NCBI RefSeq assembly: GCF_039871975.1 | Contig: NZ_JBDPLL010000001.1 | Source of the DNA: Trichormus azollae HNT15244 | GTDB taxonomy: Bacteria; Cyanobacteriota; Cyanobacteriia; Cyanobacteriales; Nostocaceae | DNA: 40,000 bases | Strand: one strand, 5' to 3' | In this document: in pieces, positions 23,771 through 40,000 of the stretch | Numbering within the stretch: the first letter of the stretch is position 1 | How the letters are laid out: every line of letters begins with the position of its first letter | Notes under the pieces: model-generated | Database searches by the model: none | Told to the model about the DNA's origin: nothing | The model's input: only the letters and a program-made list of their open reading frames with translations | Position numbers and translations under genes: made by a program

Positions 23771-23964
23771 TCAACTACCACCACTAGTAACGCCACCAGT
23801 GCGACGGGGATCAGCGGCGGCTGATAAACCAGGAAACCAAGTTGAGGATGCCATAGAGTAGCCTGAACTCCCCCAAAATACATAGAATGTTTGGGTAAAC
23901 GATGGGTGATAAGTCTTTCTATTTCTTGAATGCCAATACCTGCTTCAATGACTATAGAACCCAT
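23771..23964 (-). pseudogene. Gamma-glutamyltransferase C-terminal stub with a frameshift
   Basis: GSIVIEAGIGIQEIERL...YFGGVQA, then after a frame change SAAADPRRTGGVTSGGS stop. The rest of the gene is missing; an IS5-like fragment abuts it. Confidence 0.65.
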
Positions 23965-23971
23965 TTGGGAT

Positions 23972-24336: not shown

Positions 24337-24399
24337 AAATCAGCCCTTGGTCATCAGAAATATTAGCCTGAGTACAGTGAGTAGAAAAGAGAAAGCCGA

Positions 24400-24732
24400 G
24401 AATATCTACTGCCAGATGCCTTTTGATAGCGTTCGTGGAGTTGTAAAAACAAAACCCCTTGGTCTGAACTATCTAGAATTATTTATCCTTTGCTGCTTCA
24501 ATTTCATATCCGATGCAGTGATAGCATAAAATTAGTTGAGGTTAATACCGCGCAAAATTTTAAACTATCTAGTACTTATAGGCTTAAGTCCCTACCAACT
24601 TTATTACTAATTAAAAATGGTATTGTTAAGGAGCGTTTAGAAGGATTTAGGTCACGAGACGATTTAGGTCTGGCACTAGAAAACATTCAACTCAATTATA
24701 ACAGTATTTACCAAAAAAAATGGATATGCTAA
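24400..24732 (+). pseudogene. Thioredoxin with frameshift and degenerate active site
   Basis: The C-terminal half is IKLVEVNTAQNFKLSSTYRLKSLPTLLLIKNGIVKERLEGF. The expected WCGPC position reads PWSELS, and the N-terminal part is in another frame. Confidence 0.6.
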
Positions 24733-24912
24733 AGATTACAGGTCAAAATTACAGGATCATAGGATCTTGAGTTTGTAAAGTTGTAAGACTACCTAGTAAT
24801 TGTGTTAATTCTGTGATTAAGTACCTGAGCAAAATTAATTGAATTTTTTTGGAAAAAATAAAAATCTCTGTAGTGTTTATCTGTTAGCTGTTCCCTCTGC
24901 CAAATGCAAAAT

Positions 24913-25158
24913 TTATTTTGCACGACTACTTAATCCTCTATTGAAGGTTGAATGTGATTTACTTTTTGCAGCCATCTGAATTATTTCACCTCTAATTAAC
25001 TTAACTCGCTCATCTTCTCTAAAAAAGCAGAGTTTCGCTAGACGATGATATTCAGCTATAGTGAAGCGTTTAGCAGTAACTACCGACATAAAAGTTACCG
25101 AAAAATTGGGTTTAGAGCAAGTAAATTTTTGTAAACTATGAGTAACAATCCCCGACAT
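24913..25158 (-). pseudogene. Uma2-family (DUF820) endonuclease, N-terminal fragment
   Basis: FTIAEYHRLAKLCFFREDERVKLIRGEIIQMAAKSKSHS matches the Uma2 N-terminal motif. It is far too short for the family. Confidence 0.6.
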
Positions 25159-25200
25159 TTTAGGTCGGGGAATATGTCAACCTACGGACGTGAATAAATA

Positions 25201-25974
25201 CTACTTAATTGCAGCCCTTAATGTTGTGAGAGTTTTACCAATTGCCACAAAGTTTGAGTTGTGTGAAAGTTGCTGAAGAGTTGCTGGATCGCTTTCTAGA
25301 ACAATCTTGTTATAGATATTAATAGTTTCGTTCAGTTTGTCAGCGTTAACAGTTACTGCTTCATTAGTCTTAGCGATAGTTAAACCAGCTTTTGACGCTT
25401 TAATGCTGGCTACTAACCGTGCCTGTGATGACTCAAGTGAAGGAAGACTGGACGTACTATAAGAACGGGGGAATTTGATAATCTGAGATGCGGTATCTGT
25501 TAATTCTTTTGCTAATTGTGGAGAAAGCCCATTTGAAATTAAGGATGCTTGCAGTCTATTAGTGTTAATTGGTAAGAATATAGCAGCACGACCACTACCA
25601 AGTATACCAGCAGCAGCATTATTCAACTCATGTACAGCCGTAGGTGAAAGGTCAATACGTAGAGAACCATCCGCTGCTTTTGTGACAATGACATTAGGCG
25701 TAGCTCCGCTTGCAGATCCTGCTACGCCTTTACTGGGTGATAAAACAGGGTTATTATTTGAGCCAGTGTTTCCACCTCCACTCCCAGAACCTGCTGTACC
25801 TTTACTGGGTGATGAAATAACTGTACCACCAGAGCCAGTGTTTCCACCTCCACTTGCAGAACCTGCTGTACCTTTACTTGGTGAATTAGTTTGAGCTTGA
25901 TTTGTTAACTGCCAAGTAAACGAGATTAAAGGTGTCAGAAGGAGGGCAATAACAAATGTTCTGATTTTCAACAT
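25201..25974 (-). CDS. Secreted protein of unknown function with three Gly/Ser-rich SPSKG repeats
   Basis: 257 aa. Signal-like N-terminus MLKIRTFVIALLLTPLISF. Repeats are SPSKGTAGSASGGGNTGSGG / SPSKGTAGSGSGGGNTGSNN / SPSKGVAGSASG. It lies 32 nt downstream of the beta-barrel gene. Confidence 0.7.
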   Translation of the reverse strand: MLKIRTFVIALLLTPLISFTWQLTNQAQTNSPSKGTAGSASGGGNTGSGGTVISSPSKGTAGSGSGGGNTGSNNNPVLSPSKGVAGSASGATPNVIVTKAADGSLRIDLSPTAVHELNNAAAGILGSGRAAIFLPINTNRLQASLISNGLSPQLAKELTDTASQIIKFPRSYSTSSLPSLESSQARLVASIKASKAGLTIAKTNEAVTVNADKLNETINIYNKIVLESDPATLQQLSHNSNFVAIGKTLTTLRAAIK

Positions 25975-26006
25975 GGTTATTCTCTAAATTGTAAATGTTG
26001 AAGCGT

Positions 26007-27152
26007 TTATTTAGGCAGGAAATTGAAACCATAGCCCACTGTCATAAGAAATACAGTACCGCCTGCACTGTTATCCGTGAGATCAGCACCTTGGAGAGTA
26101 ATAGTCAAAGGAATGGTAGGCACAGGGACTAATGAAATCCCGGCATTTAAACCGACTCCACTCCAACCCAGACCTATACCTAACTGGGGATGAACTTGCA
26201 GACCCATTCCTACAAATATACCTGTACTCTCATTACCTTGTCGGAAGTCGCCACCGCCTGCTCCTATAGAAAACGAGATGGCCATTGGATTGACAGGATT
26301 GTTAGCCTGTAAAAGAGAATATGTGGTGAGTACACCATAGGCACTGGAAGGTCTAATACCTTCATTACCGTACTGGGCAAATGTATTCCAGCCACCAGCT
26401 ACAGCAACTTGAGTGTTGCCTTGAACATAGACAACGCGGTGAGCTTTGAAGTCAAAAGTGCCGTTATAACCGAAGTTTTTGATACTACCGTTGTTGAAGG
26501 TGAATTCCAAACCAATCAGGTTGTAGGCATCTCCTAAACCAAAACCTGCACTCATACTTGCGTCTGGGTCTCCGTTCCTACTCTTACCTGCTGTAGCGCC
26601 CGATCCTACTACAAATAAGTCACCCCAGTCCGCCCCGAAAGCACTCGGAGCGCCAAAACTGAGTCCAGGTTGATAGGTGCCCTTAGGTGGAGGAGTTATT
26701 TTAACAAGGGGTTCAATTAATAAATCCTGGTGTGATTTATTAACATCTAATTTATCACCCGCACTAGTTGAGGCATCTATCTGTTGAGTGATAGTCTGGG
26801 GCTGAGTAGGAGAAAGTTTCTTGGCTTTACCAAAGGTATCACCCAAGCTGGTTGAGGTATCTATCTGTTGGGTGATAGTCTGTAGTTTTTTGAACTGAAT
26901 CAAAGGTTGATTAAGTTCAACAGCTAGCTGTTGGGATTTTTGGCTGATATATTCAGTTGATTTTGTGTTTTGCTCAGTCGCTAATTCCTTGCTTGAGGCA
27001 TCAGTAACTGATCTATCAACCGCAGATGCAGATCTAATAGCAACAGATGTAGATAGGAAAAGGCAACCAAATAGATTTATTCCCATCAACAGCAGCCAAT
27101 TAGCGGAAATTACATTGGCAAATTGGCATTTAGTCAAAGTTATAGTCCTCAC
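26007..27152 (-). CDS. Putative outer-membrane beta-barrel protein with N-terminal tandem repeat
   Basis: The likely start is MGINLFGCLFLSTSVAIRSASA (Met at 27086), which looks like a signal peptide. QTITQQID(T/A)STS(L/A)GD occurs twice (DNA copies 26767..26798 and 26851..26882). The Gly-rich C-terminal 230 aa alternates hydrophobic and polar residues, ending GYGFNFLPK. Confidence 0.65.
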   Translation of the reverse strand: MRTITLTKCQFANVISANWLLLMGINLFGCLFLSTSVAIRSASAVDRSVTDASSKELATEQNTKSTEYISQKSQQLAVELNQPLIQFKKLQTITQQIDTSTSLGDTFGKAKKLSPTQPQTITQQIDASTSAGDKLDVNKSHQDLLIEPLVKITPPPKGTYQPGLSFGAPSAFGADWGDLFVVGSGATAGKSRNGDPDASMSAGFGLGDAYNLIGLEFTFNNGSIKNFGYNGTFDFKAHRVVYVQGNTQVAVAGGWNTFAQYGNEGIRPSSAYGVLTTYSLLQANNPVNPMAISFSIGAGGGDFRQGNESTGIFVGMGLQVHPQLGIGLGWSGVGLNAGISLVPVPTIPLTITLQGADLTDNSAGGTVFLMTVGYGFNFLPK

Positions 27153-27480
27153 ACTCTTATGTACTTAAATTATTCAAATAAGAGGATGTTTTAAAAGTAC
27201 CGAAAGGTAGAATTTATCGTTATTTTTGGGATTAGATACAACGGCAAATTAAGGTTAAATTCATATACCTATAGGAGTGATTGTGCTAATTTTGATAGTA
27301 AAATACCCCTTTTAAATATCCTCTAATATAACATATATACAGACCTTAATTAAACACCTCCGGGAAAGAATGTAAAGACGAAAATTTCTAGATTAAGGAC
27401 GTCTGTAGAAGGGTTATATAAAACACATATTTATTTGTCTTCAGATATCTATTATGTATATTTATGCTCATAAAGTACTA

Positions 27481-28083
27481 TTATTCTCTAATTTTAGCCT
27501 CGTCATTGTGGGCTTTTTTCACTATCCTTCCACTTTTAAGACATCCTTTTAAATGGTTGTCTAACAAAGAGGCAATTGCATCTGGATGATTTTTTTTGTA
27601 CTGCTTTTTACCCAATATCAAAACACAACTGGGTGCGCTGCTACAACGTTTTTGACAGTCGGTATGTTCAATTTTTACTTTGTCCAACAAACCGCGATCG
27701 CACAGGGTTTTTTCTAACTGTGATAATAACCCCTTACCACCTTGTTTAATACAACCAGATTTTTGACAAACCATAATCTTGGCTGTAGTTTCTGGTAGAT
27801 GATTATGAATTGGACAACAAGCAACTGGTTGCACTCGATAAGCTATGAGTTTCAGTTTACTTGTCCGTGGGTTTAATTTACTGATAGCACTCACGCGAAT
27901 TTGTTCACCAGGCACTAAAGTAGAAACCAGGGAACAACGCAAATCTTTAGGTAATTTTATTTTTACCTCTCCTGAGGGAATTACCAACTGCAAATGTTTA
28001 TATTTTTCTGGTTTATCACCAATAAATCCTAAAAACTGTCCTTTCAAATTCAATTCCGATAACGTCTGGTACTTTTCACCCAT
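27481..28083 (-). CDS. Thioredoxin-like [2Fe-2S] ferredoxin-domain protein with an extra N-terminal domain
   Basis: 200 aa. The C-terminal half has VCQKSGCIKQGG...TDCQKRCSSAPSCVLILG, the Cys pattern of thioredoxin-like [2Fe-2S] ferredoxins. The N-terminal 100 aa are unassigned. Confidence 0.6.
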   Translation of the reverse strand: MGEKYQTLSELNLKGQFLGFIGDKPEKYKHLQLVIPSGEVKIKLPKDLRCSLVSTLVPGEQIRVSAISKLNPRTSKLKLIAYRVQPVACCPIHNHLPETTAKIMVCQKSGCIKQGGKGLLSQLEKTLCDRGLLDKVKIEHTDCQKRCSSAPSCVLILGKKQYKKNHPDAIASLLDNHLKGCLKSGRIVKKAHNDEAKIRE

Positions 28084-28117
28084 ATTGATAACTCAAATTT
28101 GCAGTAGAAAATAATAA

Positions 28118-28135
28118 ACCCCACGTTCCCGGGGT
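28118..28135 (-). terminator. Possible terminator after nifT
   Basis: On the minus strand, ACCCC GGGAACGT GGGGT is followed by TTATTATTTTC. The stem is only 5 bp. Confidence 0.4.
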
Positions 28136-28222
28136 AATGTTGCTGATCTAAAGAAAGAAGGAAGAGGAAAAATATATTTTGATATCTTTACCTATTACCT
28201 TCTATACTAATTCGTGATAATT

Positions 28223-28426
28223 TTAGGCGAGGCGTTTAGCTTCTACTGTTAGGGGTAAACTTTCCTTAGTTGGAATTTCACTAAATTCTAATTCCCAACC
28301 ATTAGCTAAAGTGAGAACTTTACCTGCATCACTATCTGTTTGTTTAACAACTTCTTCTTCTAGGTCTTTTTTAGCGACATAGACAACCAATGTTCCAGCA
28401 TTATTCATCCGTAGCATTACTTTCAT
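28223..28426 (-). CDS. nifT: NifT/FixU
   Basis: 67 aa. [26 protein letters not shown]...LANGWELEF. Confidence 0.9.
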   Translation of the reverse strand: MKVMLRMNNAGTLVVYVAKKDLEEEVVKQTDSDAGKVLTLANGWELEFSEIPTKESLPLTVEAKRLA

Positions 28427-28688
28427 TTTTTTCCTCAGCAGATTCTAGTTCTATTTTCCGACAACCTATGATGTACCCTGTATCTAAGAAATGCACGGCA
28501 TATATATAGTAAGCTTGCAAAAAAGTTCCTATACTTGCCACATAACCAACGTCTCCAATTCTTGCTAATACTTCACCAATTTCTCTACCGACAAAAGTAC
28601 CATCGTTTTTGATTAGTTTCTTAACTCGGACTTTTTGACCAATTTCAAAAACTGGTTGTGAGTTAAGTTCTATTTCATCGCGTTGCAT
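28401..28688 (-). CDS. nifZ: NifZ
   Basis: Start set to [22 protein letters not shown] (Met at 28688). KNDGTF...GDVGYV...YAVHF is the typical NifZ pattern. It overlaps nifT by 26 nt and nifV by 14 nt. Confidence 0.85.
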
Positions 28689-29808
28689 GGGAATACCTCT
28701 GTTCACTTACTAAATTCAATAACTCTTCTGTGGTGAGACTGCGTTTTTTTAGTGTTGATTGTAAGCGCACTGCATCTAACACAGACTGGGTTTCTTCTGA
28801 GTTTAAAAAGATCCCGTACTGTTGTAACAAGTTAGATAATAAATGCCTTCCAGAATGTTTACCTACTACTAAACGACGTTCCCAACCTACTTCTTCTGGT
28901 GAAAATGGTTCATAGGTTTCTGGGTTTTTGAGTACACCATGAGCATGAATTCCAGACTCGTGAGCAAAGGTATTTTCACCAACAATTGCTTTCCAAGGTG
29001 GGACCTTTGCACCTGATGCAGCAGCAACTAATTGAGATAGTCCTAATAAATGTCGAGTATCAATTCCTAAATCAACACCATAGATACATTTTATTGCCAT
29101 GACAACTTCTTCTAAAGCTGCATTTCCTGCTCTTTCACCTAAACCATTAACAGTGGTATTAACAGAAGTTGCTCCGGCTTTAATACCGGCAATAGCGTTG
29201 GCAGTTGCTAGTCCAAAATCATTATGGGTGTGAATCTCTACAGGAATTGATAAAGTAGATACTAATCGCTTAACTTTGAGGTGAGTTCCAAAGGGATCAA
29301 GAACTCCAACTGTATCGCAAAAACGAAATCTTGATGCACCCCATTCTTGAGCGTATAATGCAACATCCTCGAGGAAGTTTTCATCAGATCTAGAAGAATC
29401 TTCTCCTCCTACTGCAACCCAAAGACCATTATCAACTGCGAAGCCAATACAGTCTTTGAGTCTTTGTAAACTTACTCTCCATTGACCATGAAATTTAGCA
29501 GCGATTTGTATACCAGAAACGGGAATAGCAATATGTATTCTTTCCAATCCACAGGCAATAGAAGCTTTAATATCTGAGATAACAGCGCGGTTCCAACCTA
29601 GTAATTTAGCATCTAAATCTAAGTCAGCAATTGCTTGAATTGCACGAATTTCTTCTTCTCCCATTGCGGGTATACCGACTTCTAATTCAGGAACACCAAT
29701 GGCATCAAGAAATTGTGCGATTGCTACTTTTTCTTCTAAGTTAAAAGCAACACCTGCTGCTTGTTCTCCATCACGCAATGTAGTATCATTAATAATGATT
29801 TGACTCAT
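28675..29808 (-). CDS. nifV: Homocitrate synthase NifV
   Basis: Start set to [16 protein letters not shown] (ATG 29808..29806). Contains [16 protein letters not shown]. The 38-residue hydrophobic extension in the track ORF is unsupported. Confidence 0.93.
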
Positions 29809-30010
29809 CTCAAACATTCCTCTAGCCGAGTTTTTACTAATACCCTTTAACGCTACAATTTCTAGTAATGATAGATGTAAAACAAATATTAAAAATTTTA
29901 AAATAAATGCTAAAAATAGCACCAGTTACTAAATACACTTGACAATATTTAATTATTGCTCAAGAACTCCCAGCATATCTGTATGGCAGAAAACCAAATT
30001 TTGGTTTCAT

Positions 30011-30130
30011 TTATAAAGTCTTCTTTCTGTAAGAATTTGGATTCTCTACAAATAGGCAGTAGCTAATATAGCTATTCGCAAGTCCCGTGAATAATAAGAT
30101 ACTGAGTCCAGCAATTAAACTACCAATCAT
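30011..30130 (-). CDS. Candidate 39-aa hydrophobic peptide (below the track cutoff)
   Basis: MIGSLIAGLSILLFTGLANSYISYCLFVENPNSYRKKTL. GAGG lies 8 nt upstream of the ATG. It has one predicted TM helix plus a basic tail. No homology knowledge is available. Confidence 0.3.
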   Translation of the reverse strand: MIGSLIAGLSILLFTGLANSYISYCLFVENPNSYRKKTL

Positions 30131-30297
30131 AGTAGCAACCTCAACTTTTGAGAATAATTGTTAGGTGGTATAAGCAATTTATCTCTCACAAATAGTCGCT
30201 TCACCTCTAAGTGTATAAATTTAAATTGACATCTAAAGCTAGATGAAGAACTTATTCCATAAGCATTTTTAATTTTGAATCTTGAATTTTCAATGGT

Positions 30298-30495
30298 TTA
30301 AGCGTGTTCTGCTAACCAATCAAAAATCTTTTCTAGTTGTTCTAAATTAATGAAGCCATACTGCCAAAGTAGCATAGGGATGGGTCCTTTATCTAATTCG
30401 CGGTGTCGCAAAGCAACAGCAATATCCGCTTTTGAAAGTTCCAGTTCATTATGCAAAAATTGAAGTAACTGTTTATCGCTGTTCCGGTGTACCAT
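30298..30495 (-). CDS. DUF2949-type small cyanobacterial protein
   Basis: 65 aa. LLQFLHNELELSKADIAVALRH...PIPMLLWQYGFINLEQLEKIFDWL. Confidence 0.7.
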   Translation of the reverse strand: MVHRNSDKQLLQFLHNELELSKADIAVALRHRELDKGPIPMLLWQYGFINLEQLEKIFDWLAEHA

Positions 30496-30822
30496 AATCT
30501 GACTTTGAAAATACCAAACTAGACGAAATTACAAAATGCTAACCCCAAGAATAATTAATAACTCCACTCTGTTTAGGAAGAAAATATGTCAGAGAAGTCT
30601 GAGATTTAGTAGAGTGAGTGAAACCTAAGCTTAGGTTAATTTCTTACAATCAGCAAGCTCATTTGTGAGTGAGCAATAACTTCGAGTTTTTCTGAGTATA
30701 AATCATGCTTGGATCATCAATTCTGATCTCATATTGTATTGGTTAGACATTTTTAAACTTGGCAATTATCATAATTAATGCCAATTTAAGATTGTGGATG
30801 TTGGATTTGGATTGGAGATGAT

Positions 30823-31053
30823 TTAACTGTGACACCAACAACCTTCTAACCATTCCACCAACTCACAACGAGAAGCTAAAAATTGAATGACTATACTGCG
30901 GACAAGAATTGCTTCTTGCAAACTATTGACTTGTACTCGCAAAGAACCATCTGGAAGACAGGAACAAGTAATCATTAATTCTTGCAAACGGTGATAAATT
31001 TGCCATCTATCACTTAAAGGAATCTGCAAAACTTGTTCACCAAGTGACAACAT
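30823..31053 (-). CDS. Small conserved cyanobacterial protein (resembles the Asr1405/Asl0597 family)
   Basis: 76 aa. DRWQIYHRLQELMITCSCLPDGSLRV...CELVEWLEGCW. It lies 4 nt after cysE. The family name is recalled, not searched. Confidence 0.55.
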   Translation of the reverse strand: MLSLGEQVLQIPLSDRWQIYHRLQELMITCSCLPDGSLRVQVNSLQEAILVRSIVIQFLASRCELVEWLEGCWCHS

Positions 31054-31056
31054 AAT

Positions 31057-31860
31057 TCAACTATCCTCATCATGGTGTTGATTTTTTAGGGTTTGTAGTT
31101 GTTGTTCAAGCTTCTCAATTTGGGAAACCAAGGAACGAATTATTCCTGCTTCTATATCAGGTAACTTGCCATGTTCTAGGGGAGAAAGACGTTTGCTTTG
31201 TTTATGGGAAATAATGCGGCCAGGAATACCCACAACGGTAGAGTCTGGAGGAACATCACGTAGCACAATTGAACCTGCACCTATACGCACGTGATCGCTA
31301 ATTTGAATATTTCCCAAAAGCTTCGCACCGGCACCCACAACAACATTATTAGCTAAAGTTGGATGACGTTTACCAATTTCTTTCCCAGTGCCACCCAGAG
31401 TTACACCTTGATAAATAAGTGCATAATCTCCCACAATGGCAGTTTCGCCAATCACAACACCCATGCCATGATCGATAAATACACCTTTACCAATTTCCGC
31501 ACCTGGATTAATTTCAATCCCGGTTAAAAACCTTCCCAAGTGGGAAATTAAACGGGGAATAAAACCCACTTTACCGATGTGTAACCAGTGCGCGAGACGA
31601 TGTAAACAAAGAGCATGAAATCCAGGGTAACAAAAGATAACCTCTAACCAACTACGTGCCGCTGGATCACGCTCAAAAATGATCCGAAAATCACTCATTA
31701 ATGGCTCAAAAGAACCGCCAGGACGTTGATTTTGCCGCGAGTCTGTAATTGCAGTTTGGGTTTGACTGGTACTCTCTAAAGACTGTTGCATCGGTACTGT
31801 CTGGTTAAAAGAGCCATGTTGTATTTTTCTGCTTATATCAGGTGACGCGAAAGGAGACAA
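31057..31860 (-). CDS. cysE: Serine O-acetyltransferase (CysE; nifP-type position at the head of the nifVZT unit)
   Basis: [20 protein letters not shown], then hexapeptide repeats [24 protein letters not shown]...[13 protein letters not shown]. The true start may be an internal Met (for example M24 at 31791). Confidence 0.9.
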
Positions 31861-31884
31861 AACAGCAGATACCGATTGGATCTA

Positions 31885-32040
31885 TTGAATTTATTACGAT
31901 TGTACTCAATAGGTTTAAGCCCCTATTGTACCCCTATTGTACAGAAGGTTACATTTTTTGTTGGGGTAGGGGTACTAGTTTTTTATCACAGGGGTACTGG
32001 TATTTTTGGGGTAGGGTTTGAGATTTTTTGTACTCAAGAT
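31885..32040 (-). promoter_or_regulatory. GTAC-box module upstream of cysE (copy B)
   Basis: ATTTATTACGATTGTACTCA (31889..31908), 2 x CCCTATTGTAC (31921..31942), GGGGTA(C/G) at 31963/31969/31991/32008, and TTTTGTACTCA (32026..32036). Confidence 0.6.
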
Positions 32041-32473
32041 AGATCTATGTTGCTTATGAGACTTTCAGCGATTTAAGCAAGATATTTTCAGATATATTAA
32101 GTTCTACTCTTATGCTCAGAAACATCACCTTTATGACAGGAAATATAGGCTTTATGTATTTGCTGCTACTATTATTAGTATTAATAGAGTAGAGTTTTGG
32201 TAGCCAAAAACCGGATTTCTTTATTTTGTTTTAGGATTTGTTTGCTTTATGTGCGATTATTTTAAAATAAAAATACGGAGAGTAAAAGTTCGGAAATTAT
32301 AGAGTTTATCTAGGTGCTTATGGTATAATCTAAAAAATGACGAACACCACAAGACTTATGCTCAAAATAGTCCAAGGTATTTATCGAGACAGACAGATTA
32401 AATTTACCGAACTTCCCAAAGATGTAAACAATAGATAAGTTAGATAAGTTTTTTTTGTACTGCTGAGGCAACT

Positions 32474-33009
32474 ATGCAATCTCCTATCCTCACCAACCCA
32501 TTAGACCATTTTCTTCAGCAACCCAATATTGAAGCCTCTCCTTCTTGGGAGTTAAGGGGCGACAAAGAACCTAAGGAGCTTCCTGTATAAGGGTTATGGC
32601 CTTTAGACCCTACTGATAAAATGTCCACTTATTGCGAATAAAAATTGATGAGTTGTTCCATTAACAAGACCATTATCTTCCTATCTTCAGGGTTTATACT
32701 GACGTAGCCGCCTGATGACTTCACAGTTAACTGTCAATAAGCACCGTTTTTTTTATCAATCTTTTCAAGGGATCTATCACGTAAAACCTCTGTCCTGTGA
32801 TGGTTTTACCTTCCTTGTCGCCCCCTCAAGGGAGGGTATTTATCCAGGGACAAGCCCAGCAACAACGCATGCCAACGCTATTTCATTCCCGCCTCCAACG
32901 TAACCTTGTTAATGCCATCAATAGCCAAACTACCGCCTACGAAGCTATTCAAGAACTCCAGTGTATCCTACCTCCCATGTCTCCCGTACCTGATATGGTA
33001 ATAAGCTAA
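32474..33009 (+). pseudogene. Uma2-family endonuclease, disrupted
   Basis: MQSPILTNPLDHFLQQPNIEASPSWELRGDKEP, then a stop. It resumes in another frame as LQRNLVNAINSQTTAYEAIQELQCILPPMSPVPDMVIS. Confidence 0.6.
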
Positions 33010-34205
33010 AAATTTGTTGAGCCAAAGCAGTAGGAGAAAGCGCCCCCGTTGCGGCTAAAATACTCATTATTTGATGATAAAGCAAACTTAAAGGACATTT
33101 GATTGGCTGAATTGGTTCAATCGAACGTTCTTCTAAATAAAGTTGAATAGTAGAAATACCCGGGCAACTTTTGCAGTGTATTTATTGTGGTAATGAAGTT
33201 TCTGCTAATGGTTTTTCTTCTGCACAAATAAAATGCATATCCGCAGACTCTCCCCGGCTGCCACTTCTTCCCAATCTTTGTGAAAAACTAGCAACAGATA
33301 AAGGCGATTCTAACTGAATAACTCTTTCTAAATAACCAATATCTATACCTAATTCTAATTCTAGAGTCAAAGTTGCAGCAGTTACAGCCAGAGTATTACG
33401 TTCAAGCATAGCGTTTTCAGCAGTTTGTCTATCTTCAGTCGGCAGAAATACTACTGTGAGGGACATAATATATATCTGTAAATCCTTCTGTTCTGGCGAT
33501 TTGATGCAAAGAAGAAACAATAGATTCTTTTTGGGTACAGTAGTTAGCAAATATTAGACATTTGCGAGATTTAGTGATCTTAGAAATATATTTATCATAA
33601 TCTAATTTGTCAGATTCTTTCTCCAGATAAGAATGTTCTACAGCCAGTTTGAGTTGCCGATTTACAGATTCAATCTTTGGTGTAATTACTGGCTTTCCTA
33701 TTCCTGACCTTAACCATTTTTTACCCATTGAGTAATCACCGAGAGTTGCGGATAAACCAATGCGTCGAGGTCGGGTTCTGGTTAATTTTGCTAAACGTTA
33801 TTATTCACAAATAATTTGATAACCTCTTTCTGAACCCATAAGGGCGTGAATTTCATCAAAAATGACAAAACGTAAATTACCAAACAATTCTATTAATTTC
33901 TTATGTTTGTTAATTAATAAACTTCCTAGAGATTCTGGTGTAATTTACAGAATACCTTGAGGATTTTTTAAAAGTTGGTTTTTGTGACTTTAAGGAACAT
34001 CACTATACTAAGAATATACAGATATATCTGCGGTTTGTAATAAATCATTGAGCCGTGCAAATTGGGCATTCATTAAAGCTTTGATAGGACTAATATACAA
34101 TATCCCGATTGTGGTAGCGGGGGTTTCTTGTAGTAACGTTAAAACTGTTAAAGATGCAGCTTCTGTTTTTCCGGCAGGGGTGGCCACAGCAACTAGTAAA
34201 TGATT
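33000..34205 (-). pseudogene. Lhr-like (BrxHI-like) DEAD/DEAH-box superfamily-2 helicase, truncated at both ends and frameshifted
   Basis: Walker A region VAVATPAGKTEAA (about 34190), DEIH box FVIFDEIHALMGSERG, GLSATLGD, HSSISADRRQTAENA, motif V/VI TLELELGIDIGYLERVIQLESPLSVASFSQRLGRSG, then LYLEERSIEPI...LLYHQIMSILAATGALSP. Several stops are present. The N-terminus is cut by an IS and the C-terminal half is missing. Confidence 0.75.
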
Positions 34206-35049
34206 ATATATATTAAATACAGCATAATAAATAGCAATATATGCTGATACATAACTTACATATTGACAAAGTAGTAAAATAGTGTAGTGATAAGAAATGT
34301 CATCTACTTAGCAGGTATCGGAGAATTAGAGAAATAACTAAACCTTCTACAGTAAAATCCAATCTGGAACATTACACTCTGTTGTTGCTATCAGAACCAA
34401 AGCATGGGGAACGTTTCACATGACAGTGTGAATAGATTATTGCTCAGAGAGAGATACGAACCGAAAGATTTATTCGATACAGTAGGAAAAATCATAAATA
34501 TAGTAGGAGGGATTTTAAGTGTACATGACACAGTAGTAGGAAAATTGTATAGTGACCCAAAAGATGCAGAATTAATCAGTTATTTTTGGTCTGGGAAATA
34601 TCATAAGAGCATTGAAGGAATAAATTCAATTACACTGTAGTACAGTGATGTGTATGGAAATTCAGTACCAATAAATTACAGAATATACGACAAAAAGGAG
34701 GGAAAGACTAAGAACGATTATTTTCAGGAAATGCTCAAGGAAGTGATTGATTGGAGTGTAAAACCAAGAATAGTTACAGGAGACAGTTGGTATTCAGGGG
34801 TAGAAAGCTTCAAATTTTTAAAGAACCAGAAATTGGGTTTTCTATTTGGGATTGAGAAAAATAGAAGCGTATCAAATAAACCGGAAAAGTATTATCCATT
34901 AAGGAGTTTAGAAATTCTCGATGAAGGTTTAATAACTGATTTGAGAGCATTTAGATTGATCGAATTGTTTAGGCAAGACTTCAAAAAAGAAGACTCTAGA
35001 GACTATATAGTGTATCTACCAGATGAAGAAGCTCTCAATCAAATCACCA

Positions 35050-35107
35050 CTCATTGCTCAACCTCATACACTCAGCGATCGCTGAGTGTATGAGGTTGAG
35101 CAATGAG
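35050..35107. repeat. 58-bp perfect palindrome centred on a HIP1 site
   Basis: CTCATTGCTCAACCTCATACACTCAGCGA|TCGCTGAGTGTATGAGGTTGAGCAATGAG, with GCGATCGC at 35075..35082. Checked base by base. Confidence 0.95.
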
Positions 35108-35194
35108 GCTTTGATGGTAAAGTCATTGTAAAAGTAGCAATATTGCCCAAGGAAGGCATGAAGCTTAAGGCCAAAATCACACTGACCATTTTAC

Positions 35195-36271
35195 TGCGAT
35201 GTCAGACCCACTAATAGATCGTATAAAGTAACTAAAGCAACATAAATTGATAGATATTTTGACAATAGCCATCTGTGCAGTAATCTGCTCCGCAGATAGT
35301 TGGGTAGCAATTGAATTGTATGGATGCACAAAATATGAGTGGTTAAAAACGTTTTTAGAGCTACCAAACGGGATATCGTCACAGGATACATTTGCGCGAG
35401 TATTCGCACAATTAAATACGCAGCAATTTCAGTTATGTTTCTTAAACTGGATGAAAACAGTACAAAGCAGGACAGAGGCTGAAGTTGTGGCAATTGATGG
35501 AAAAACTTTATGTGGCTCTCATAATCAAAGTATTGAGCAAAGTCCAATTCAAATAGTGAGTGTATGGGCAACTACAAATAAATTAGTGTTAGGACAGGTG
35601 AAAGTAGACTCTAAATCGAATCAGATTACAGCCATCCTAGAATTAATCAAAGTTTTAGAGCTTAATCGTTGTATGGTGACGATTGATGCAATCCGTTGCC
35701 AAAAAGAAATTGTGAAATTAATTACAGAACAAAACGCAGATTATGTAATTTCTTTAAAAAAGAACCAAGGTAAAAGGTAATCTGTATGAGTCAGTAGAAT
35801 AGCTATTTAAGTTAGGGATAAGTACAGGCTTTCAAGAGTTTCAAGATAGCACATATAAAACCAAAGAGACAGACCATGGTCGTCATGAAATCCGCAATTA
35901 TATGATGTTATCTCCAATTAGGTTTCAGGTTGACCCTGATTCAGTTTGGTCAAATACAAAAAGTGTTGGAATGGTAGAATCTGTCCGACAAGTGGATGCT
36001 AAAACAAAAGTAGAGACTCGTTATTTTATTAGTGATGTTGAGGATAATGCCAAACAATCTGCTAATTCTGTCCGCAGTCATTAGTCATTGGGGAATAGAA
36101 AATTTATTGCATTGGGTATTAGATCTAGCTTTAAAAGAAGATGATTACCGGATTAGGAAAGATAATGCTCCACAAAATTTTGCAGTGATGCGACAGATAG
36201 CAGTCAATCTTTTGGGTAAAGAGAAACCCGTGAAGCGGGGGCTAAAAATAAACAGTTTTTGGCAGCAATAG
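35195..36271 (+). pseudogene. ISAs1-family transposase, multiply disrupted (nested insertion)
   Basis: DPLIDRIK-stop-LKQHKLIDILTIAICAVICSADSW, LPNGISSQDTFARVF, VAIDGKTLCGS, VTIDAIRCQKEIV, HWGIENLLHWVLDLALKEDDYRIRKDNAPQNF. These are the hallmark ISAs1 blocks spread over three frames. Confidence 0.8.
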
Positions 36272-37006
36272 ACAATAACTATTTAGAAAGGATTTTAGCT
36301 TTAGCATAAACTAGCTTGTCAATAATTTAGTTAAAATAGTTACTCATTTATGCCTGGATAATTAGCTAATTTATCCTTAGACAAGCAAGAGTTATTTTAA
36401 TATATATAAGTTAATTTGCTCCTTTGCAAAATAATCCATTTATTCTGTTGATCTTTTTGTTAATTCTTGCACTTATTTTGAAACTCTTAATTAGTTTTTG
36501 TTACGAAATAAGGTGCGTTTCCCCTGTTGGGGGATTGAACATTTTCAGAGAGCCATCAAACAAGTATGTGGAATTTGTGGACTTATGGTTAGAGATAGCC
36601 AAGCAATTGAAACACAGATATTTCGTTCACTTCAAGCATTTGTTCGTTTAGAAAAAATATGCTCTAAAAATATAATTTCTAATTGGTATGAATTGCAAAT
36701 GAACTTATTCACTTTAGTTGTGCGCAACTACATTGTGGATAGTCTTACCAATGCTGGTGCTGCTTAATACTTATTAATGAGTTCTTTGTCAATGCGTAAC
36801 TCCTATGCTCTTAGTTCTGTCCAATTGTGAAGATAAATGAACTATTGGATAAATGGTGCAAGTCTAGAGAATGTGCTCTTACTCATAGATGGAAGAATAA
36901 TCACAGAATACTATGTTTTACGCTAGTTGCTCACCTAAGTAAGCTTACAGTAACCTAGTAACAAGGAGTTAAGTTATAAAAGCAACGAAGCTGTAAAGTT
37001 AGCAAC

Positions 37007-37450
37007 ATGACAAATCAAAATTTGGGTGATTTTGCCAAAGAAATGCTATTAGTACGTTATGAAGTGCAGCAGCAACTAGGTAAAAAAACAGGACGGAGGA
37101 CGCTGCTAACTCATAATTCACAAACTCAAAAACTAGTATTGGTTAAACTACTGAGATTTGATGATGAGTTTCAATGGCACGATTTAAAGTTGTTTGAACG
37201 CGAAGCTAAAACCCTCAAATCACTTTCTCATCTAGCTATTCCCCGCTATCTAGATTATTTTGAATTAGATACACAAACCTACAAAGGATTTGCATTAGTA
37301 CAGAGTTACATTCCTGCTGAATCTTTGGAAACTCAACTGAAGGCAGGACGCAGTTTTAGTGAATAAGAAGTTAAACAGTTAGCAAAAGCATTACTATAAA
37401 TTCTGAAATATTTACACAATCAGCAACCACCTGTTATTCATCAATCATAA
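37007..37450 (+). pseudogene. Ser/Thr protein kinase, N-terminal lobe only, with internal stops
   Basis: RYEVQQQLGKKTGRRT, LVLVKLL, KLFEREAKTLKSLSHLAIPRYLDYF, a TAA after RSFSE, then EVKQLAKALL-stop-ILKYLHNQQPPVIH. It breaks exactly where HRD should follow. Confidence 0.75.
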
Positions 37451-38822
37451 ACTAAATTCGGCTGCATCATCATCTAAATCACCATCTTGACCTGCTAAGA
37501 TGGGTTTAAAATTAGCACCGTGAATTAATTCAGTAAATTTCATCTCTGGATTTTGTTAAATAACATTTAACACGCTAATAAAATCTCTAATGATTTCCCC
37601 TGGTGTCAATAATGCTTCTGCACCCAAGCGATTGATAATTTTTTGGACAAATTCTTTTAAATCACTATTCCTTAATATTTTTTAATACCCAAAATCAAGA
37701 GTATGAATATATGTTAACGCTGTAAAGGTGTGAGTATTTCTGTTTCTGTTAGGGGGTTCAGACGAATCACGGATCCTATCTATTCTTGTACATTGGCTTG
37801 GGTAACAAATCGGCTTTATTTGGTGCGTCTGCGCCAAGCTTGGTCTGCAAATAGTTCACGATTTGGGTCTTCTAAAAATTTTGTTGTTCCACCAATGAAA
37901 ATACCAATATTTTCAGCTTTACATTTTTACATTGCTTGGTATCATTAAAGATTACTAAAATTCTGTTGTAGTTTTTTTGACGAGTAACTGTGGTGGAAAT
38001 TTGATATAAATTTACAGCTTCATCTACTAAAATTAATAGTCCTCCATAGGCAATTTCGGCGACAAATCTAGCTAATAAGGCGACAAATCTAGCTAATAAT
38101 TTGATATAATTAAACCTAGCCTTATTATCAATGATGAAGCGTACTCCTAAAGCTGCCTTAGTTTCAGTTTTCGTGTTAAATTCTCCTCTTAACCACCGTA
38201 AACAGGCACTTTTTAATTCATCGTCGTCTAAGCGATAGCTCCGCCAATAGGCTATAATGACACTACCAAAATTAAAGTAGTGAACTAAATCCTCAATATA
38301 CTGAATTACTTCTCGAATTTTTGTTTCTACTTAGTCATCAAAACCTTCATCATTGGGGCGCATTTGAGTTTCTTTAGCTACTTCTTGCTGGATTTTATTA
38401 ATTCATCCTTCTAATATGGAAACTAAAGCACCACCATCAGATCAGGACGGGTTTTTGTAGCGAGATGACTCATGAATTCTCGATAGGTTGCTAAACCTTC
38501 ATTGTGACTTCCTGCTAGTCTGCATTCAGAGGATAAATCAGCATCAGCAACTATAAATCCTTGCTCCATTGCACGGTTACGAATAATTTGCAGCATGAAG
38601 CTTTTACCTGAGCCGTAGCCACCTATTATAAATCGAAATGCAGCTACACTTTCTGCAATATCATTGAGATTTTGTAATATGCCATTGAGTTCTTTTTCTA
38701 GACTTACTGCTATATGTTCAATTCCTCTTCTGGGTAGTACTCCTGCACCTAGTGAATTAATTAAAGCAGTGGATACTTTTTTCGAGGTTTTGAGCTTTGT
38801 AATGTAAACTACATTACTGGAT
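37445..38822 (-). pseudogene. DUF2791/BrxD-like P-loop ATPase, start lost and multiply frameshifted
   Basis: ALINSLGAGVLPRRGIEHIAVSLEKEL...FRFIIGGYGSGKSFMLQIIRNRAMEQGF (Walker A), RWLRGEFNTKTEAKAALGV, GGLLILVDEAVNLYQI (Walker B), RQKNYNRILVIFND, GIFIGGTTKFLEDPNRELF, LTPGEIIRDFISVLNV. It spans at least four frames and contains a 21-bp tandem duplication at 38058..38099. Confidence 0.7.
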
Positions 38823-38956
38823 TTTTAATCTCTATTACAAATAGCAAGTATATCATACGCAGTTGGGATATATGTTATTGGTCGATTTTGACTATCTAAA
38901 ATCCTAAGTTTATATCAGATATGTCAGCTATTGAGTAAGATTATCATTCTGATTGT

Positions 38957-40000
38957 TTAGGATTGAGTAATTAATTCTTCATGCTTGGTGATCATTTTTT
39001 TCACATTTAGTATATGCTCTTGATAAATTTCAGGTATTTCTGCATCTGTTTTAATAATTAGTTCCCCAAGGGTATGACTGGCAATTTCATTTATTGCATC
39101 CATTAATAAATTTGGCATGGTGATATGTTCTTCGGCGATTTGTTTGATAATAGCTTTGGGATTATCTTGAGCAACTATGGCTTTTAATACATAAATTTGG
39201 TTGGTTGGCAATTTTTCTAGAAAATTACTCCATTCTGGTGGTAAATTATCTGAAGTAGTACTTAAAGAATCTGTAGAACTTGAAGAATCTATGGGTTCTA
39301 GTATTTCATCAAAAGGAAATAATTCAATATCTTCTTGTATGTTTTTAGTTAATGCTTCCTGATGGAGAGTTTCCATGTTTTGGAGTAATTCCCAAACTTG
39401 GTTTTGCAACAAGTTGCGCTCATCTTGTAATAAAGAAATTTGATTGTGTAATTGGCTAATTTCTGATTGTTGTGCTTGTTTTCTGGTGTATAGGTCGGTG
39501 AGAATATTTTCGAGATTCTCTCTGGCGGTTATTGTATCTGTGAGTAAGTTATTTTGATTTGATACTTTGATTTCTAACTCGTGAATTTCGATTCTCAGTT
39601 CATAAAGTTTTTCGTCTAGTTGGGGTTTAAGTCGATTCATGAGAACTAGGTTATTTTCTATTTCCTGTTTTTCTTGCTTGAAGGCTTCAACTTGGGCTTG
39701 TAGTTGGGTAATTTCTGAACGTGATACGTTACAATTTAGTTCTAGACGGCGTTTTTCTGCTGCGAGTTCAGAGTAAGAATTATTAAGTTCTTCTATATTA
39801 TTTTGTAGTTGATGCAGTTCGGTTGTGAAATTATTAACTTCTAGTTCTAACTGCTTTTTTTGTCCAGCGAAGGTCCCTAGATCTCGATGAAGGCTATCTC
39901 TTTGATTACGACATTCTGCGATCTGATTTTGCAGTTGTTGTGATTCTGTATAGAGGATGGTTTTATGTTCTTCTACTTGTTTAATTTCTCTAGCAATCCG
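38957..40000 (-). CDS. Long coiled-coil protein with TerB-C-like C-terminal domain (5' end beyond the window)
   Basis: The frame is open from the window edge (checked codon by codon from 39641..40000) to the stop at 38957. More than 230 aa show heptad-rich Q/E/L/N text. The C-terminus is LPTNQIYVLKAIVAQDNPKAIIKQIAEEHITMPNLLMDAINEIASHTLGELIIKTD. The TerB-C resemblance is from memory. Confidence 0.6.
   Translation of the reverse strand, partial: RIAREIKQVEEHKTILYTESQQLQNQIAECRNQRDSLHRDLGTFAGQKKQLELEVNNFTTELHQLQNNIEELNNSYSELAAEKRRLELNCNVSRSEITQLQAQVEAFKQEKQEIENNLVLMNRLKPQLDEKLYELRIEIHELEIKVSNQNNLLTDTITARENLENILTDLYTRKQAQQSEISQLHNQISLLQDERNLLQNQVWELLQNMETLHQEALTKNIQEDIELFPFDEILEPIDSSSSTDSLSTTSDNLPPEWSNFLEKLPTNQIYVLKAIVAQDNPKAIIKQIAEEHITMPNLLMDAINEIASHTLGELIIKTDAEIPEIYQEHILNVKKMITKHEELITQS

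What the first reader, a model, noticed from the sequence alone, without database searches (positions are those of the whole stretch)
33000..40000. Wreck of a three-gene TerB-C-like / DUF2791 (BrxD-like) ATPase / Lhr (BrxHI-like) helicase cassette, a predicted but uncharacterised conflict system
Seen on the minus strand, in order: a long coiled-coil ORF with a TerB-C-like tail (38957..>40000, still open), a DUF2791-type P-loop ATPase in at least four frames (37445..38822), and after 3.2 kb of inserted DNA an Lhr-like SF2 helicase stub (33000..34205). Established: comparative genomics by the Aravind group on Ter-linked systems describes TerB-N/TerB-C proteins linked to a DUF2791 AAA+ ATPase and an SF2 helicase. 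BREX nomenclature lists DUF2791 as BrxD and an Lhr-like helicase as BrxHI. To my knowledge no mechanism has been shown experimentally. Inference: this was once a functional defence or stress cassette that was inactivated by IS insertion and point decay. The coiled-coil-rich first gene is an unusual variant of the TerB-type component.
Basis: partly seen in the sequence, partly recalled or inferred. Interest (0 to 1): 0.7.

Follow-up and report, generated by a model that had tools for sequence, protein, structure and literature searches.

The report
Decayed Shango module beside intact sepT
In the fern symbiont Trichormus (Nostoc) azollae, a known septal-wall gene (sepT) survives intact, while its partner ATPase, a kinase and a helicase, which together resemble the Shango anti-phage system, have rotted into pseudogenes.

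Summary
On the minus strand lie a coiled-coil ORF with a TerB-C tail (40000..38957), a DUF2791 ATPase in four frame segments (38803..37445) and an Lhr-like helicase (36904..36806 and 34238..32993).

1. The ATPase and helicase are best matched by SngB and SngC of Shango. Shango is a named anti-phage system validated by experiment, so this is not an uncharacterised cassette.
2. The first gene is not wreckage. It is the orthologue of sepT (All2460), a characterised septal protein of Anabaena. It is intact in every T. azollae strain examined.
3. The "3.2 kb insert" has two parts. One is 2.6 kb of nested IS701/ISAs1 inside the helicase gene. The other is 0.64 kb of ancestral DNA holding a truncated Ser/Thr kinase gene and the first 33 helicase codons.

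The block DUF815-sepT-sngB is present in 78 of 80 Nostocales loci; the other two contigs end before DUF815. SngB is 83-94% identical across them. The helicase is kept in 18 of 70 loci.

No paper in the searched library links the SepT block to Shango. The wreck itself is ordinary for this eroding genome. What appears new is SepT occupying the SngA position of a chromosomally fixed Shango-type module.

The parts
38957..40000 (-). 3' 347 codons plus stop of sepT, the all2460 orthologue. It holds the SngA position of the Shango-type trio: coiled coil plus C-terminal TerB-C domain. The gene is intact, but its N-terminal 79 codons (two TM helices) lie beyond the window edge.
   Evidence: Open frame. 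TerB_C 1.9e-27. 100% identical to P0001, a 426-aa T. azollae protein. 57% identical over 402 aa to All2460, E=4e-156. The strain 0708 orthologue is listed as a SepT homologue in PMC10653889 Data Set S1.
37445..38803 (-). Pseudogene of the all2459 orthologue, a DUF2791/BrxC_BrxD P-loop ATPase of the Shango SngB family. Lesions: start ATG>ATT; frameshifts +5 (codon 120), +8 (codon 282) and -1 (codon 351); stops at codons 132, 156, 318, 330, 363 and 405. The Walker A motif GGYGSGKS is still readable.
   Evidence: (SngB e-44, e-46, e-14 against BrxD e-20, e-7).
38058..38099 (-). Perfect 21-bp tandem duplication (TTATTAGCTAGATTTGTCGCC x2) inside the sngB pseudogene. It is in frame (LLARFVA repeated) and specific to this strain.
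37007..37444 (+). N-terminal 146 codons of a Ser/Thr protein kinase pseudogene, with stops at codons 120 and 131. A 1011-bp deletion removed the remaining 303 codons and the spacer to sngB. The deletion junction is at 37443/37444.
   Evidence: tblastn 86% identity to the A. azotica kinase, aa 1-146. blastn junctions. Pkinase domain in the intact orthologue. Stops.
36806..36904 (-). First 33 codons of the sngC-type helicase pseudogene, with a stop at codon 21 shared by three strains.
34220..36805 (+). 2586-bp insertion in sngC after codon 33. It is an IS701-family element with terminal inverted repeats at 34256-34271 and 36784-36799. Its transposase pieces lie at 34404..35093 and 36498..36767, and it is itself split by a second IS.
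   Evidence: NCBIfam transpos_IS701_2 2e-66 (profile 27-244) and 1.9e-16 (profile 245-315). IRs. Boundaries from blastn against the intact locus.
35062..36521 (+). Decayed ISAs1-family element nested in the IS701 transposase gene. Transposase pieces lie at 35247..35780 and 35902..36271. The boundaries are approximate.
   Evidence: NCBIfam transpos_ISAs1 4e-68 and 1.8e-28. The IS701 profile breaks at position 244/245.
32993..34238 (-). Main body of the sngC-type Lhr-like SF2 helicase pseudogene, codons 36-447 of 731. Lesions: stops at codons 112, 118, 133, 181, 182, 303 and 384; a +4 frameshift at codon 304; a +6 insertion at codon 326. Motifs I (TPAGKTEA), II (DEIH) and III (SAT) are still readable. 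The gene is truncated at 32995/32996 by a ~1.7-kb deletion relative to another T. azollae strain.
   Evidence: (SngC e-43, e-36 against BrxHI e-25, e-24).

Best explanation
The stretch is the Trichormus (Nostoc) azollae copy of the Nostocales 'sepT block', extended by a Shango-type ATPase-helicase arm.

Gene order on the minus strand:
- sepT: a membrane-anchored coiled-coil protein with a TerB-C tail. Intact.
- The all2459 orthologue: a DUF2791 ATPase of the SngB family. Dead.
- A divergent Ser/Thr kinase. Dead.
- An Lhr-type SF2 helicase of the SngC family. Dead.

How it works.
Shown elsewhere: in Anabaena, SepT sits in the cytoplasmic membrane at septa and the divisome. It interacts with divisome, elongasome and PG-synthase proteins, shapes the septal nanopore array, and co-purifies with All2459. 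Canonical Shango (TerB-N/TerB-C protein + SngB + SngC) protects against phages.

Inferred: the cytoplasmic TerB-C tail is the docking site for the SngB ATPase. The ATPase couples a membrane or envelope cue sensed at SepT to the helicase, which acts on DNA. I take this enzymatic arm to be a conflict or DNA-surveillance function that can be separated from SepT's structural role in septal peptidoglycan.

In the sheltered, genome-eroding fern symbiont the arm became dispensable and was inactivated early, because several lesions are shared by three strains. sepT has been kept for septum and nanopore biogenesis.
For: Identity of the parts: Pfam and PADLOC hits on the window fragments.

Intact A. azotica orthologues match the Shango profiles end to end. 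SngB scores 9e-178 over 1-439/439, against BrxD at e-55. SngC scores 1.6e-255 over 1-717/720, against BrxHI at e-142. These scores equal those of canonical plasmid-borne Shango genes.

The SepT tail is 33% identical to the TerB-C tail of a canonical SngA, E=6e-12.

sepT orthology: 57% identity over the full length to All2460, plus the synteny block all2461-all2460-all2459 described in PMC10653889. That block is reproduced here in 78 of 80 Nostocales loci; the other two contigs end before DUF815. All2459 co-immunoprecipitates with SepT (PMC10653889).

The trio is adjacent in 18 of 70 loci.

Differential fate in T. azollae:
- sepT is intact in the window genome and in L081-L085.
- It is listed as retained in strain 0708 (PMC12421839).
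- dN/dS is 0.35-0.51 for sepT, against 0.91-1.57 for sngB and 1.53 for sngC.
- Shared lesions are the lost sngB start codon and stop 363, sngC stop 21 and the IS insertion, and kinase stop 120 and its deletion.
- Between strains the pseudogene stretch is 95.6% identical, against 98.3% for the adjacent functional DNA.
Against: - No experiment links the Nostocales ATPase or helicase to phage defence.
- SngB is present in all 80 loci at a fixed chromosomal site and is 83-94% identical. That pattern looks more like a core housekeeping gene than a typical accessory immune gene.
- SepT lacks the TerB-N domain that canonical SngA proteins carry, so it is not a canonical SngA.
- Non-Nostocales SepT-like proteins have no SngB or SngC neighbour. 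The association may therefore be a secondary capture rather than an ancestral Shango.
- TerB-C docking to SngB is an inference from co-IP and gene linkage, not a demonstrated contact.
- The dN/dS values rest on few substitutions.
- The N-terminus of sepT lies outside the window. Its intactness rests on the database protein P0001.
Confidence: 0.7

Rival explanations
1. The whole Nostocales block (DUF815-SepT-All2459, with or without the helicase) is a domesticated, purely cell-biological module for peptidoglycan, septum or DNA handling. It has no immune role. Its decay in T. azollae would then simply reflect relaxed need for fine control of cell size and septation inside the fern.
For: - SngB is universal, syntenic and 83-94% conserved across the order, making it the most conserved gene in the neighbourhood.
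- The DUF815-SepT pairing extends to non-heterocystous filamentous cyanobacteria.
- sepT mutants have PG and nanopore phenotypes, and all three block genes are induced about 2-fold after nitrogen step-down (PMC10653889).
- There is a precedent for repurposing in Anabaena: the ParMR-derived CorMR cytoskeleton (abstract of 10.1101/2025.06.27.661541).
Against: - If All2459 were needed for SepT's septal role, its early loss in a symbiont that keeps sepT and working septal junctions (PMC12421839) would be unexpected.
- The helicase is patchy, present in 26% of loci, like an accessory gene.
- SngB and SngC score as highly on the Shango profiles as validated-type systems do.
Confidence: 0.3
2. One reading: all three genes form one dead, experimentally uncharacterised Ter-linked conflict cassette, and the first gene is an unusual TerB-type variant.
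For: The domain families are right. Two of the three genes are clearly dead.
Against: - The first gene is intact, annotated, orthologous to the characterised sepT, and under purifying selection.
- The ATPase-helicase pair belongs to Shango, whose anti-phage activity has been shown.
- The coiled-coil form is the norm in Nostocales.
Confidence: 0.05
3. The remnant of a BREX system (BrxD plus BrxHI).
For: The Pfam family is named BrxC_BrxD. The BrxD and BrxHI profiles give secondary hits.
Against: - SngB and SngC outscore BrxD and BrxHI by more than 100 orders of magnitude on the intact orthologues.
- Neither the intact A. azotica locus nor the gene calls of L081 show BrxA, BrxB, BrxC, PglX, PglZ or BrxL genes.
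Confidence: 0.02

Closest known systems
Shango anti-phage system (SngA TerB protein, SngB ATPase, SngC helicase; Millman et al. 2022, Johnson et al. 2023)
   Same: The ATPase and helicase match the SngB and SngC profiles end to end in intact relatives. The gene order is A-B-C. The first protein ends in the same TerB-C domain. In 7 loci sngC follows sngB directly, as in canonical operons.
   Different: - The SngA position is held by SepT, which has two TM helices and a long coiled coil in place of TerB-N and TerB.
- It matches only positions 329-527 of the 528-position SngA profile.
- The cluster is chromosomally fixed and order-wide rather than patchy or mobile.
- It carries an extra upstream DUF815 ATPase and, in one sublineage, a divergent Ser/Thr kinase between sngB and sngC.
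- The helicase is absent from 74% of loci.
- In this window the B and C genes are dead.
SepT synteny block of Anabaena sp. PCC 7120 (all2461-all2460-all2459; Velazquez-Suarez et al. 2023, PMC10653889)
   Same: The first gene is the sepT orthologue. The dead ATPase is the all2459 orthologue. The DUF815 gene (all2461 type) sits upstream in sister strains.
   Different: The paper calls both neighbours generic P-loop NTPases and does not mention Shango, BREX, helicases or phages. In T. azollae and its relatives (A. azotica and others) the block also carries a kinase and an SngC helicase. In T. azollae only sepT (and DUF815) remain open.
TerB-N/TerB-C + DUF2791 AAA+ ATPase + SF2 helicase linkage predicted by Anantharaman, Iyer & Aravind 2012 (cited in 10.1101/2022.05.11.491447)
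   Same: It is the comparative-genomics forerunner of Shango.
   Different: It is a prediction only. The cyanobacterial variant lacks TerB-N.
BREX accessory genes BrxD and BrxHI
   Same: The same superfamilies: the DUF2791 ATPase, and an Lhr-like helicase of the SngC/BrxHI/DruE/DpdJ clade (PMC12278908).
   Different: The profile scores are much lower than for SngB and SngC. There are no core BREX genes nearby.
Lhr and MrfA DNA-repair helicases (PDB 5v9x, 7lhl, 6znp)
   Same: They are the closest solved structures to the intact helicase, and it carries the WH_Lhr domain.
   Different: Similarity is limited to the helicase core (E about 1e-33 to 1e-28). The genomic context and partners differ.

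Membership tests
Shango (SngABC) | SngB: a DUF2791/BrxC_BrxD P-loop ATPase best matched by the SngB profile | tested here: met
   Window fragments score SngB 6e-44, 3e-46 and 4e-14, against BrxD 8e-20 and 7e-7. The intact orthologue scores 9e-178 end to end.
Shango (SngABC) | SngC: an Lhr-like SF2 helicase best matched by the SngC profile | tested here: met
   Window fragments score SngC 3.5e-43 and 1.7e-36, against BrxHI 1e-24 and 5e-24. The intact orthologue scores 1.6e-255 over 1-717/720.
Shango (SngABC) | SngA carries a C-terminal TerB-C domain | tested here: met
   TerB_C 1.9e-27. SngA profile positions 343-526, 4e-12. 33% identity to the Paenibacillus SngA tail, E=6e-12.
Shango (SngABC) | SngA carries the N-terminal TerB-N (and TerB) domain | tested here: not met
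   Full-length SepT of A. azotica shows TerB_C only. Canonical SngA proteins show TerB_N at 4e-38 and 1e-66 and match the SngA profile nearly end to end.
Shango (SngABC) | The three genes are adjacent and co-oriented | tested here: met
   Full trio in 18 of 70 Nostocales loci. sngC lies 14-300 nt after sngB in 7 of them, and a kinase gene intervenes in 10. In the window the order is preserved but disrupted.
Shango (SngABC) | Confers phage resistance | not testable with these tools
   Shown only for the E. coli and P. aeruginosa systems. In this window sngB and sngC are pseudogenes, so no activity is possible.
SepT (All2460) family | Full-length orthology to All2460 | tested here: met
   57% identity over 402 aa, E=4e-156. 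The N. azollae 0708 protein is in the authors' SepT homologue list. AAZO_RS06650 is listed as SepT in PMC12421839.
SepT (All2460) family | Two N-terminal TM helices, coiled-coil regions and TerB-C | tested here: met
   The coiled-coil-type hits and TerB_C are in the window. The two hydrophobic segments (residues ~9-52 of P0001) lie just outside the window and match the TMD residues 12-50 reported for All2460. No TM predictor was run.
SepT (All2460) family | Synteny block with a P-loop NTPase on each side (all2461 and all2459) | tested here: met
   DUF815-sepT-DUF2791 order in L001-L074 and L077-L080 (78 of 80 loci; L075 and L076 are short contigs that end before DUF815) and in sister strains L081-L085. 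In the window the all2459 orthologue is a pseudogene, and all2461 lies beyond the edge.
SepT (All2460) family | Septal or divisome localisation and an effect on nanopores | not testable with these tools
   Experimental property reported for Anabaena only (PMC10653889).
BREX | Core genes (BrxA, BrxB, BrxC, PglX, PglZ, BrxL) linked to the ATPase and helicase | tested here: not met
   None appear among the ORFs or gene calls around the intact and sister loci. The BrxD and BrxHI profiles are clearly second best.
Ter tellurite-resistance / stress cluster | TerB core domain together with TerC, TerD, TerZ and related genes | tested here: not met
   Only TerB_C is present. There are no Ter genes in the neighbourhood.
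IS701 family / ISAs1 family (the insert) | Family transposase plus terminal inverted repeats | tested here: met
   transpos_IS701_2 2e-66 and 1.9e-16, split at profile position 244/245. transpos_ISAs1 4e-68 and 1.8e-28. IS701 IRs at 34256-71 and 36784-99. ISAs1 ends and target duplications were not resolved.

The most novel reading that the evidence does not exclude
A Shango-type immune module (SngB ATPase, with or without the SngC helicase) became fixed as a core chromosomal cluster of a whole bacterial order. It did so by docking, through a TerB-C tail, onto SepT, a septal and divisome coiled-coil scaffold that governs peptidoglycan growth and cell-cell nanopores.

If so, SepT is the natural SngA of this system. 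Its known localisation and partners would then show what the TerB-C arm of Shango monitors: the envelope, PG-synthesis sites, or DNA at closing septa. The T. azollae locus would be a natural separation-of-function experiment, with the scaffold kept and the enzymatic arm discarded.
Probability: 0.3. Interest if true: 0.7.

Novelty: new variant of a known kind. Interest (0 to 1): 0.45.

Why it matters
The mechanism of Shango is unknown, and the role of TerB-type proteins in defence is still described as unclear (10.1101/2025.09.30.679545).

The Nostocales cluster offers a version of the system whose A-component already has experimental data: membrane anchoring, septal and divisome localisation, partners among PG synthases, and co-purification with the SngB-type ATPase. 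In the other direction, the SepT field has two unexplained 'P-loop NTPase' neighbours that can now be named and tested.

The T. azollae pseudogenes show that sepT can persist without its ATPase, kinase and helicase partners, which argues that the functions are separable. As a piece of the symbiont genome, the wreck itself is routine reductive decay.

Tried and rejected
- Fetching the DNA beyond the window edge through the exact protein P0001 failed, because no record exists. Sister-strain contigs L081-L085 were used as proxies instead.
- The Rfam scan of 30000-40000 found nothing.
- A self-BLAST of the insert found no other IS copies in the window. It found only the 58-bp palindrome.
- I tested whether Nostocales SepT acquired its TerB-C tail from a Shango SngA by a domain swap. 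The tail is about equally similar to a Paenibacillus SngA tail (55 bits) and to non-Nostocales SepT-like tails (46-60 bits), so the test is inconclusive.
- The PDB sequence search for the SngB-type ATPase gave no hit.
- The BREX-remnant and Ter-cluster readings were rejected on profile scores and on the missing partner genes.
- Exact ISAs1 termini and target-site duplications could not be resolved from this single decayed copy.
- Literature searches found no paper linking SepT, All2459 or Nostocales with Shango. This covers the held library only.

Full report
**What is in the sequence**

Three-frame translation of the minus strand shows four things:
- an uninterrupted 347-codon frame from the window edge to a stop at 38957-38959;
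- a run of broken reading frames between 38824 and 37448;
- about 3 kb with plus-strand ORFs;
- more broken minus-strand frames from 34307 to 32948.

Pfam assigns the first frame a TerB_C domain (1.9e-27). It assigns the second set to BrxC_BrxD/DUF2791 (7e-43, 3e-41, 8e-6, 4.5e-11) and the last set to DEAD and Helicase_C.

**Which families**

The PADLOC defence-protein profiles are more specific. The ATPase pieces match SngB (6e-44, 3e-46, 4e-14) far better than BrxD. The helicase pieces match SngC (3.5e-43, 1.7e-36) far better than BrxHI. The first ORF matches the C-terminal third of SngA (4e-12).

SngA, SngB and SngC make up Shango. This three-gene system (TerB protein, ATPase, helicase) was reported in 2022 and shown to reduce phage plating in E. 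coli. It was independently shown to protect P. aeruginosa (10.1101/2022.05.11.491447 and 10.1101/2022.11.11.516204). The cassette is thus a named, validated system type. Its mechanism remains unknown: a 2025 preprint still calls the role of TerB proteins unclear.

**Intact relatives**

A scan of one genome per species found 220 loci encoding a relative of the ATPase. The best 80 are all Nostocales.

The closest is Anabaena azotica SJ-1 (L001). Its gene order is:
- a Tmemb_14 gene on the minus strand;
- a DUF815 AAA ATPase;
- a 438-aa protein with two N-terminal hydrophobic helices, a long coiled coil and TerB_C;
- a 441-aa DUF2791 ATPase;
- a 449-aa Ser/Thr kinase on the opposite strand;
- a 731-aa DEAD/Helicase_C/WH_Lhr helicase.

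The intact ATPase and helicase match SngB and SngC end to end (9e-178 and 1.6e-255). These scores equal those of canonical Shango genes on Paenibacillus and Phaeobacter plasmids.

Canonical SngA proteins carry TerB_N (with or without TerB) plus TerB_C, and they match the SngA profile almost fully. The cyanobacterial protein shares only the TerB-C tail: 33% identity over 95 residues, E=6e-12.

**The first gene is sepT**

The architecture of two N-terminal TM helices, coiled coils and TerB-C, conserved in heterocyst formers, is that of SepT (All2460) of Anabaena sp. PCC 7120 (PMC10653889). According to that paper:
- SepT is a septal and divisome-associated protein.
- Its loss alters peptidoglycan incorporation, cell size and the septal nanopore array.
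- It lies in a conserved block with two 'P-loop NTPases', All2461 and All2459.
- All2459 co-precipitates with it.

The window ORF is 100% identical to P0001, a 426-aa protein annotated in Trichormus azollae. P0001 is 57% identical over its full length to All2460, E=4e-156. The N. azollae 0708 orthologue is in the authors' own homologue table. A 2025 paper lists it as retained in the symbiont (PMC12421839).

It follows that All2461 is the DUF815 ATPase and All2459 is the SngB-type ATPase. The SepT paper does not mention Shango, BREX, helicases or phages. No paper in the searched library makes that link.

**Anatomy of the decay**

I mapped the A. azotica genes on the window by tblastn and blastn and built codon-level alignments.

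sngB (38803..37445):
- start codon ATG>ATT;
- frameshifts +5 (codon 120), +8 (codon 282) and -1 (codon 351);
- stops at codons 132, 156, 318, 330, 363 and 405;
- a perfect 21-bp tandem duplication at 38058-38099.

Kinase (37007..37444, + strand):
- only codons 1-146 remain, with stops at codons 120 and 131;
- a 1011-bp deletion joins codon 146 to the base after the sngB stop.

sngC:
- codons 1-33 lie at 36904..36806, with a stop at codon 21;
- a 2586-bp insertion follows (34220..36805);
- codons 36-447 lie at 34238..32993, with seven stops, a +4 frameshift and a +6 insertion;
- codons 448-731 are missing.

The insertion is an IS701-family element. Its IRs lie at 34256-71 and 36784-99, and its transposase matches profile positions 27-244 and 245-315. 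It is itself split by a decayed ISAs1-family element.

**Age and selectivity of the decay**

Contigs from two other T. azollae lineages were recovered: L081 (95.6% nt identity) and L085 (92%).

Both lineages carry the following:
- an open DUF815 gene;
- an intact 438-aa sepT;
- a broken sngB;
- the same kinase truncation;
- the same stop at sngC codon 21.

L081 also carries the same nested IS after sngC codon 33. The L085 contig ends inside the inserted DNA, so its helicase body was not seen.

Lesions shared by all three are the oldest:
- the sngB ATG>ATT change and stop 363;
- sngC stop 21;
- kinase stop 120 and the kinase deletion.

The IS insertion is shared as far as the L085 contig reaches.

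The window strain has added further lesions. It has also lost 1.7 kb that L081 retains, including sngC codons 448-610.

Among strains, dN/dS is 0.35-0.51 for sepT. It is 0.91-1.57 for sngB and 1.53 for sngC. The pseudogene stretch has diverged more (95.6% identity) than the adjacent DNA (98.3%). These figures rest on few substitutions but all point the same way: sepT is maintained and the rest drifts.

**Distribution**

- In all 80 Nostocales loci the SepT-like gene lies directly upstream of sngB. The Tmemb_14 and DUF815 genes lie upstream in 78 of them; the two exceptions are short contigs that end before that point.
- SngB is 83-94% identical to the A. azotica protein and is the most conserved gene of the neighbourhood. 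DUF815 is 71-88% identical and SepT 54-83%.
- Of 70 loci with at least 5 kb downstream, 18 have a full-length SngC. It is directly adjacent in 7, behind the kinase in 10 and behind a kinase fragment in 1. The other 52 have none within range.
- SngC identity tracks SngB identity across genera, which is consistent with vertical descent and repeated loss. This is an inference.
- Outside Nostocales, SepT-like genes of Coleofasciculus and Kastovskya keep the upstream DUF815 gene but have no DUF2791 or helicase neighbour.
- The DUF815-SepT pair is therefore the older unit. The Shango-type arm is attached only in Nostocales. Whether the tail itself came from an SngA could not be decided.

**Most likely function and mechanism**

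Shown elsewhere:
- SepT's membrane and septal location, its partners, and its co-purification with All2459;
- the anti-phage activity of canonical Shango.

Inferred here:
- The TerB-C tail recruits the SngB ATPase to the membrane scaffold.
- SngB relays a membrane or envelope cue to the Lhr-like helicase. The nearest solved relatives of that helicase are the DNA-repair helicases Lhr and MrfA.

T. azollae keeps sepT and functional septal junctions (PMC12421839), yet it lost the ATPase, kinase and helicase early. I therefore judge the enzymatic arm to be functionally separable from SepT's structural role. It is more likely a conflict or DNA-surveillance function that is dispensable inside the fern.

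The main rival is that the whole block is a domesticated cell-biological module. The order-wide, highly conserved, syntenic SngB favours that rival, and I cannot exclude it.

**Verdict**

- The wreck is routine for this eroding genome, and both the system type and the first gene are already known.
- The part that appears new is the equation of the SepT block with a Shango-type module having a TerB-N-less, membrane-anchored A-component. It makes the TerB-C/SngB connection directly testable in a tractable model organism.

Noticed in passing
window 35050-35107: A perfect 58-bp palindrome (29-nt arms, no spacer) lies exactly where IS701 transposase homology breaks off and the nested ISAs1 element begins. 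One arm continues the IS701 reading frame and the other is its inverted copy. It may be a scar of hairpin-mediated transposition or of an inverted duplication.
   Followed up: partly
window 16744-31860: The decayed locus sits next to nif-region genes. These are NifS-like (16744-17961), NifB-like (18529-20079; Radical_SAM + Nitro_FeMo-Co), a homocitrate synthase of NifV type (28675-29922) and a hexapeptide acetyltransferase of CysE type (31057-31860). All are open reading frames, in contrast to the pseudogenes beside them.
   Followed up: partly
L081 8580-9930 and L085 8584-9930 (sister T. azollae strains; beyond the window edge): The DUF815 (all2461-type) gene upstream of sepT is still open. 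However, it shows dN/dS of about 0.99 between the two strains, and in L081 a frame change near codon 423. It may be on its way to becoming a pseudogene.
   Followed up: partly
L001 11427-12776 (intact orthologue of window 37007-37444): The Ser/Thr kinase wedged between sngB and sngC matches the PADLOC PD-T4-6 kinase defence profiles (1.5e-59). Its non-kinase C-terminal part was not analysed. The kinase is found full-length next to sngB in 16 of 70 loci, and 6 of those have no helicase.
   Followed up: partly
L088, L089, L091 (Coleofasciculus, Kastovskya): Non-heterocystous SepT-like genes keep the upstream DUF815 ATPase, and in Kastovskya the Tmemb_14 gene too. They lack any DUF2791 or helicase neighbour. 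DUF815-SepT is therefore a deeper conserved pair that has not been characterised.
   Followed up: partly
L086 3274-4995 versus L087 2477-5008: The TerB-C tail of Paenibacillus SngA is more similar to the cyanobacterial SepT tails (about 55 bits) than to the Phaeobacter SngA tail (24 bits). This parallels Paenibacillus SngB being the closest plasmid-borne relative of Nostocales SngB (54.6%). The pattern hints that the tail and the ATPase co-evolve.
   Followed up: partly
window 32996-31861: The stretch between the truncated helicase and the CysE-like gene corresponds to L081 19008 onward, where a weak Uma2-endonuclease fragment is called. No Pfam hit was obtained for the 70-aa ORF at 32797-33009. 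It is probably more gene debris.
   Followed up: partly
window 25201-25974, 26007-27152 and 27481-28083: Three sizeable minus-strand ORFs (257, 381 and 200 aa) inside the nif-region neighbourhood have no Pfam match at E<=1e-5.
   Followed up: no
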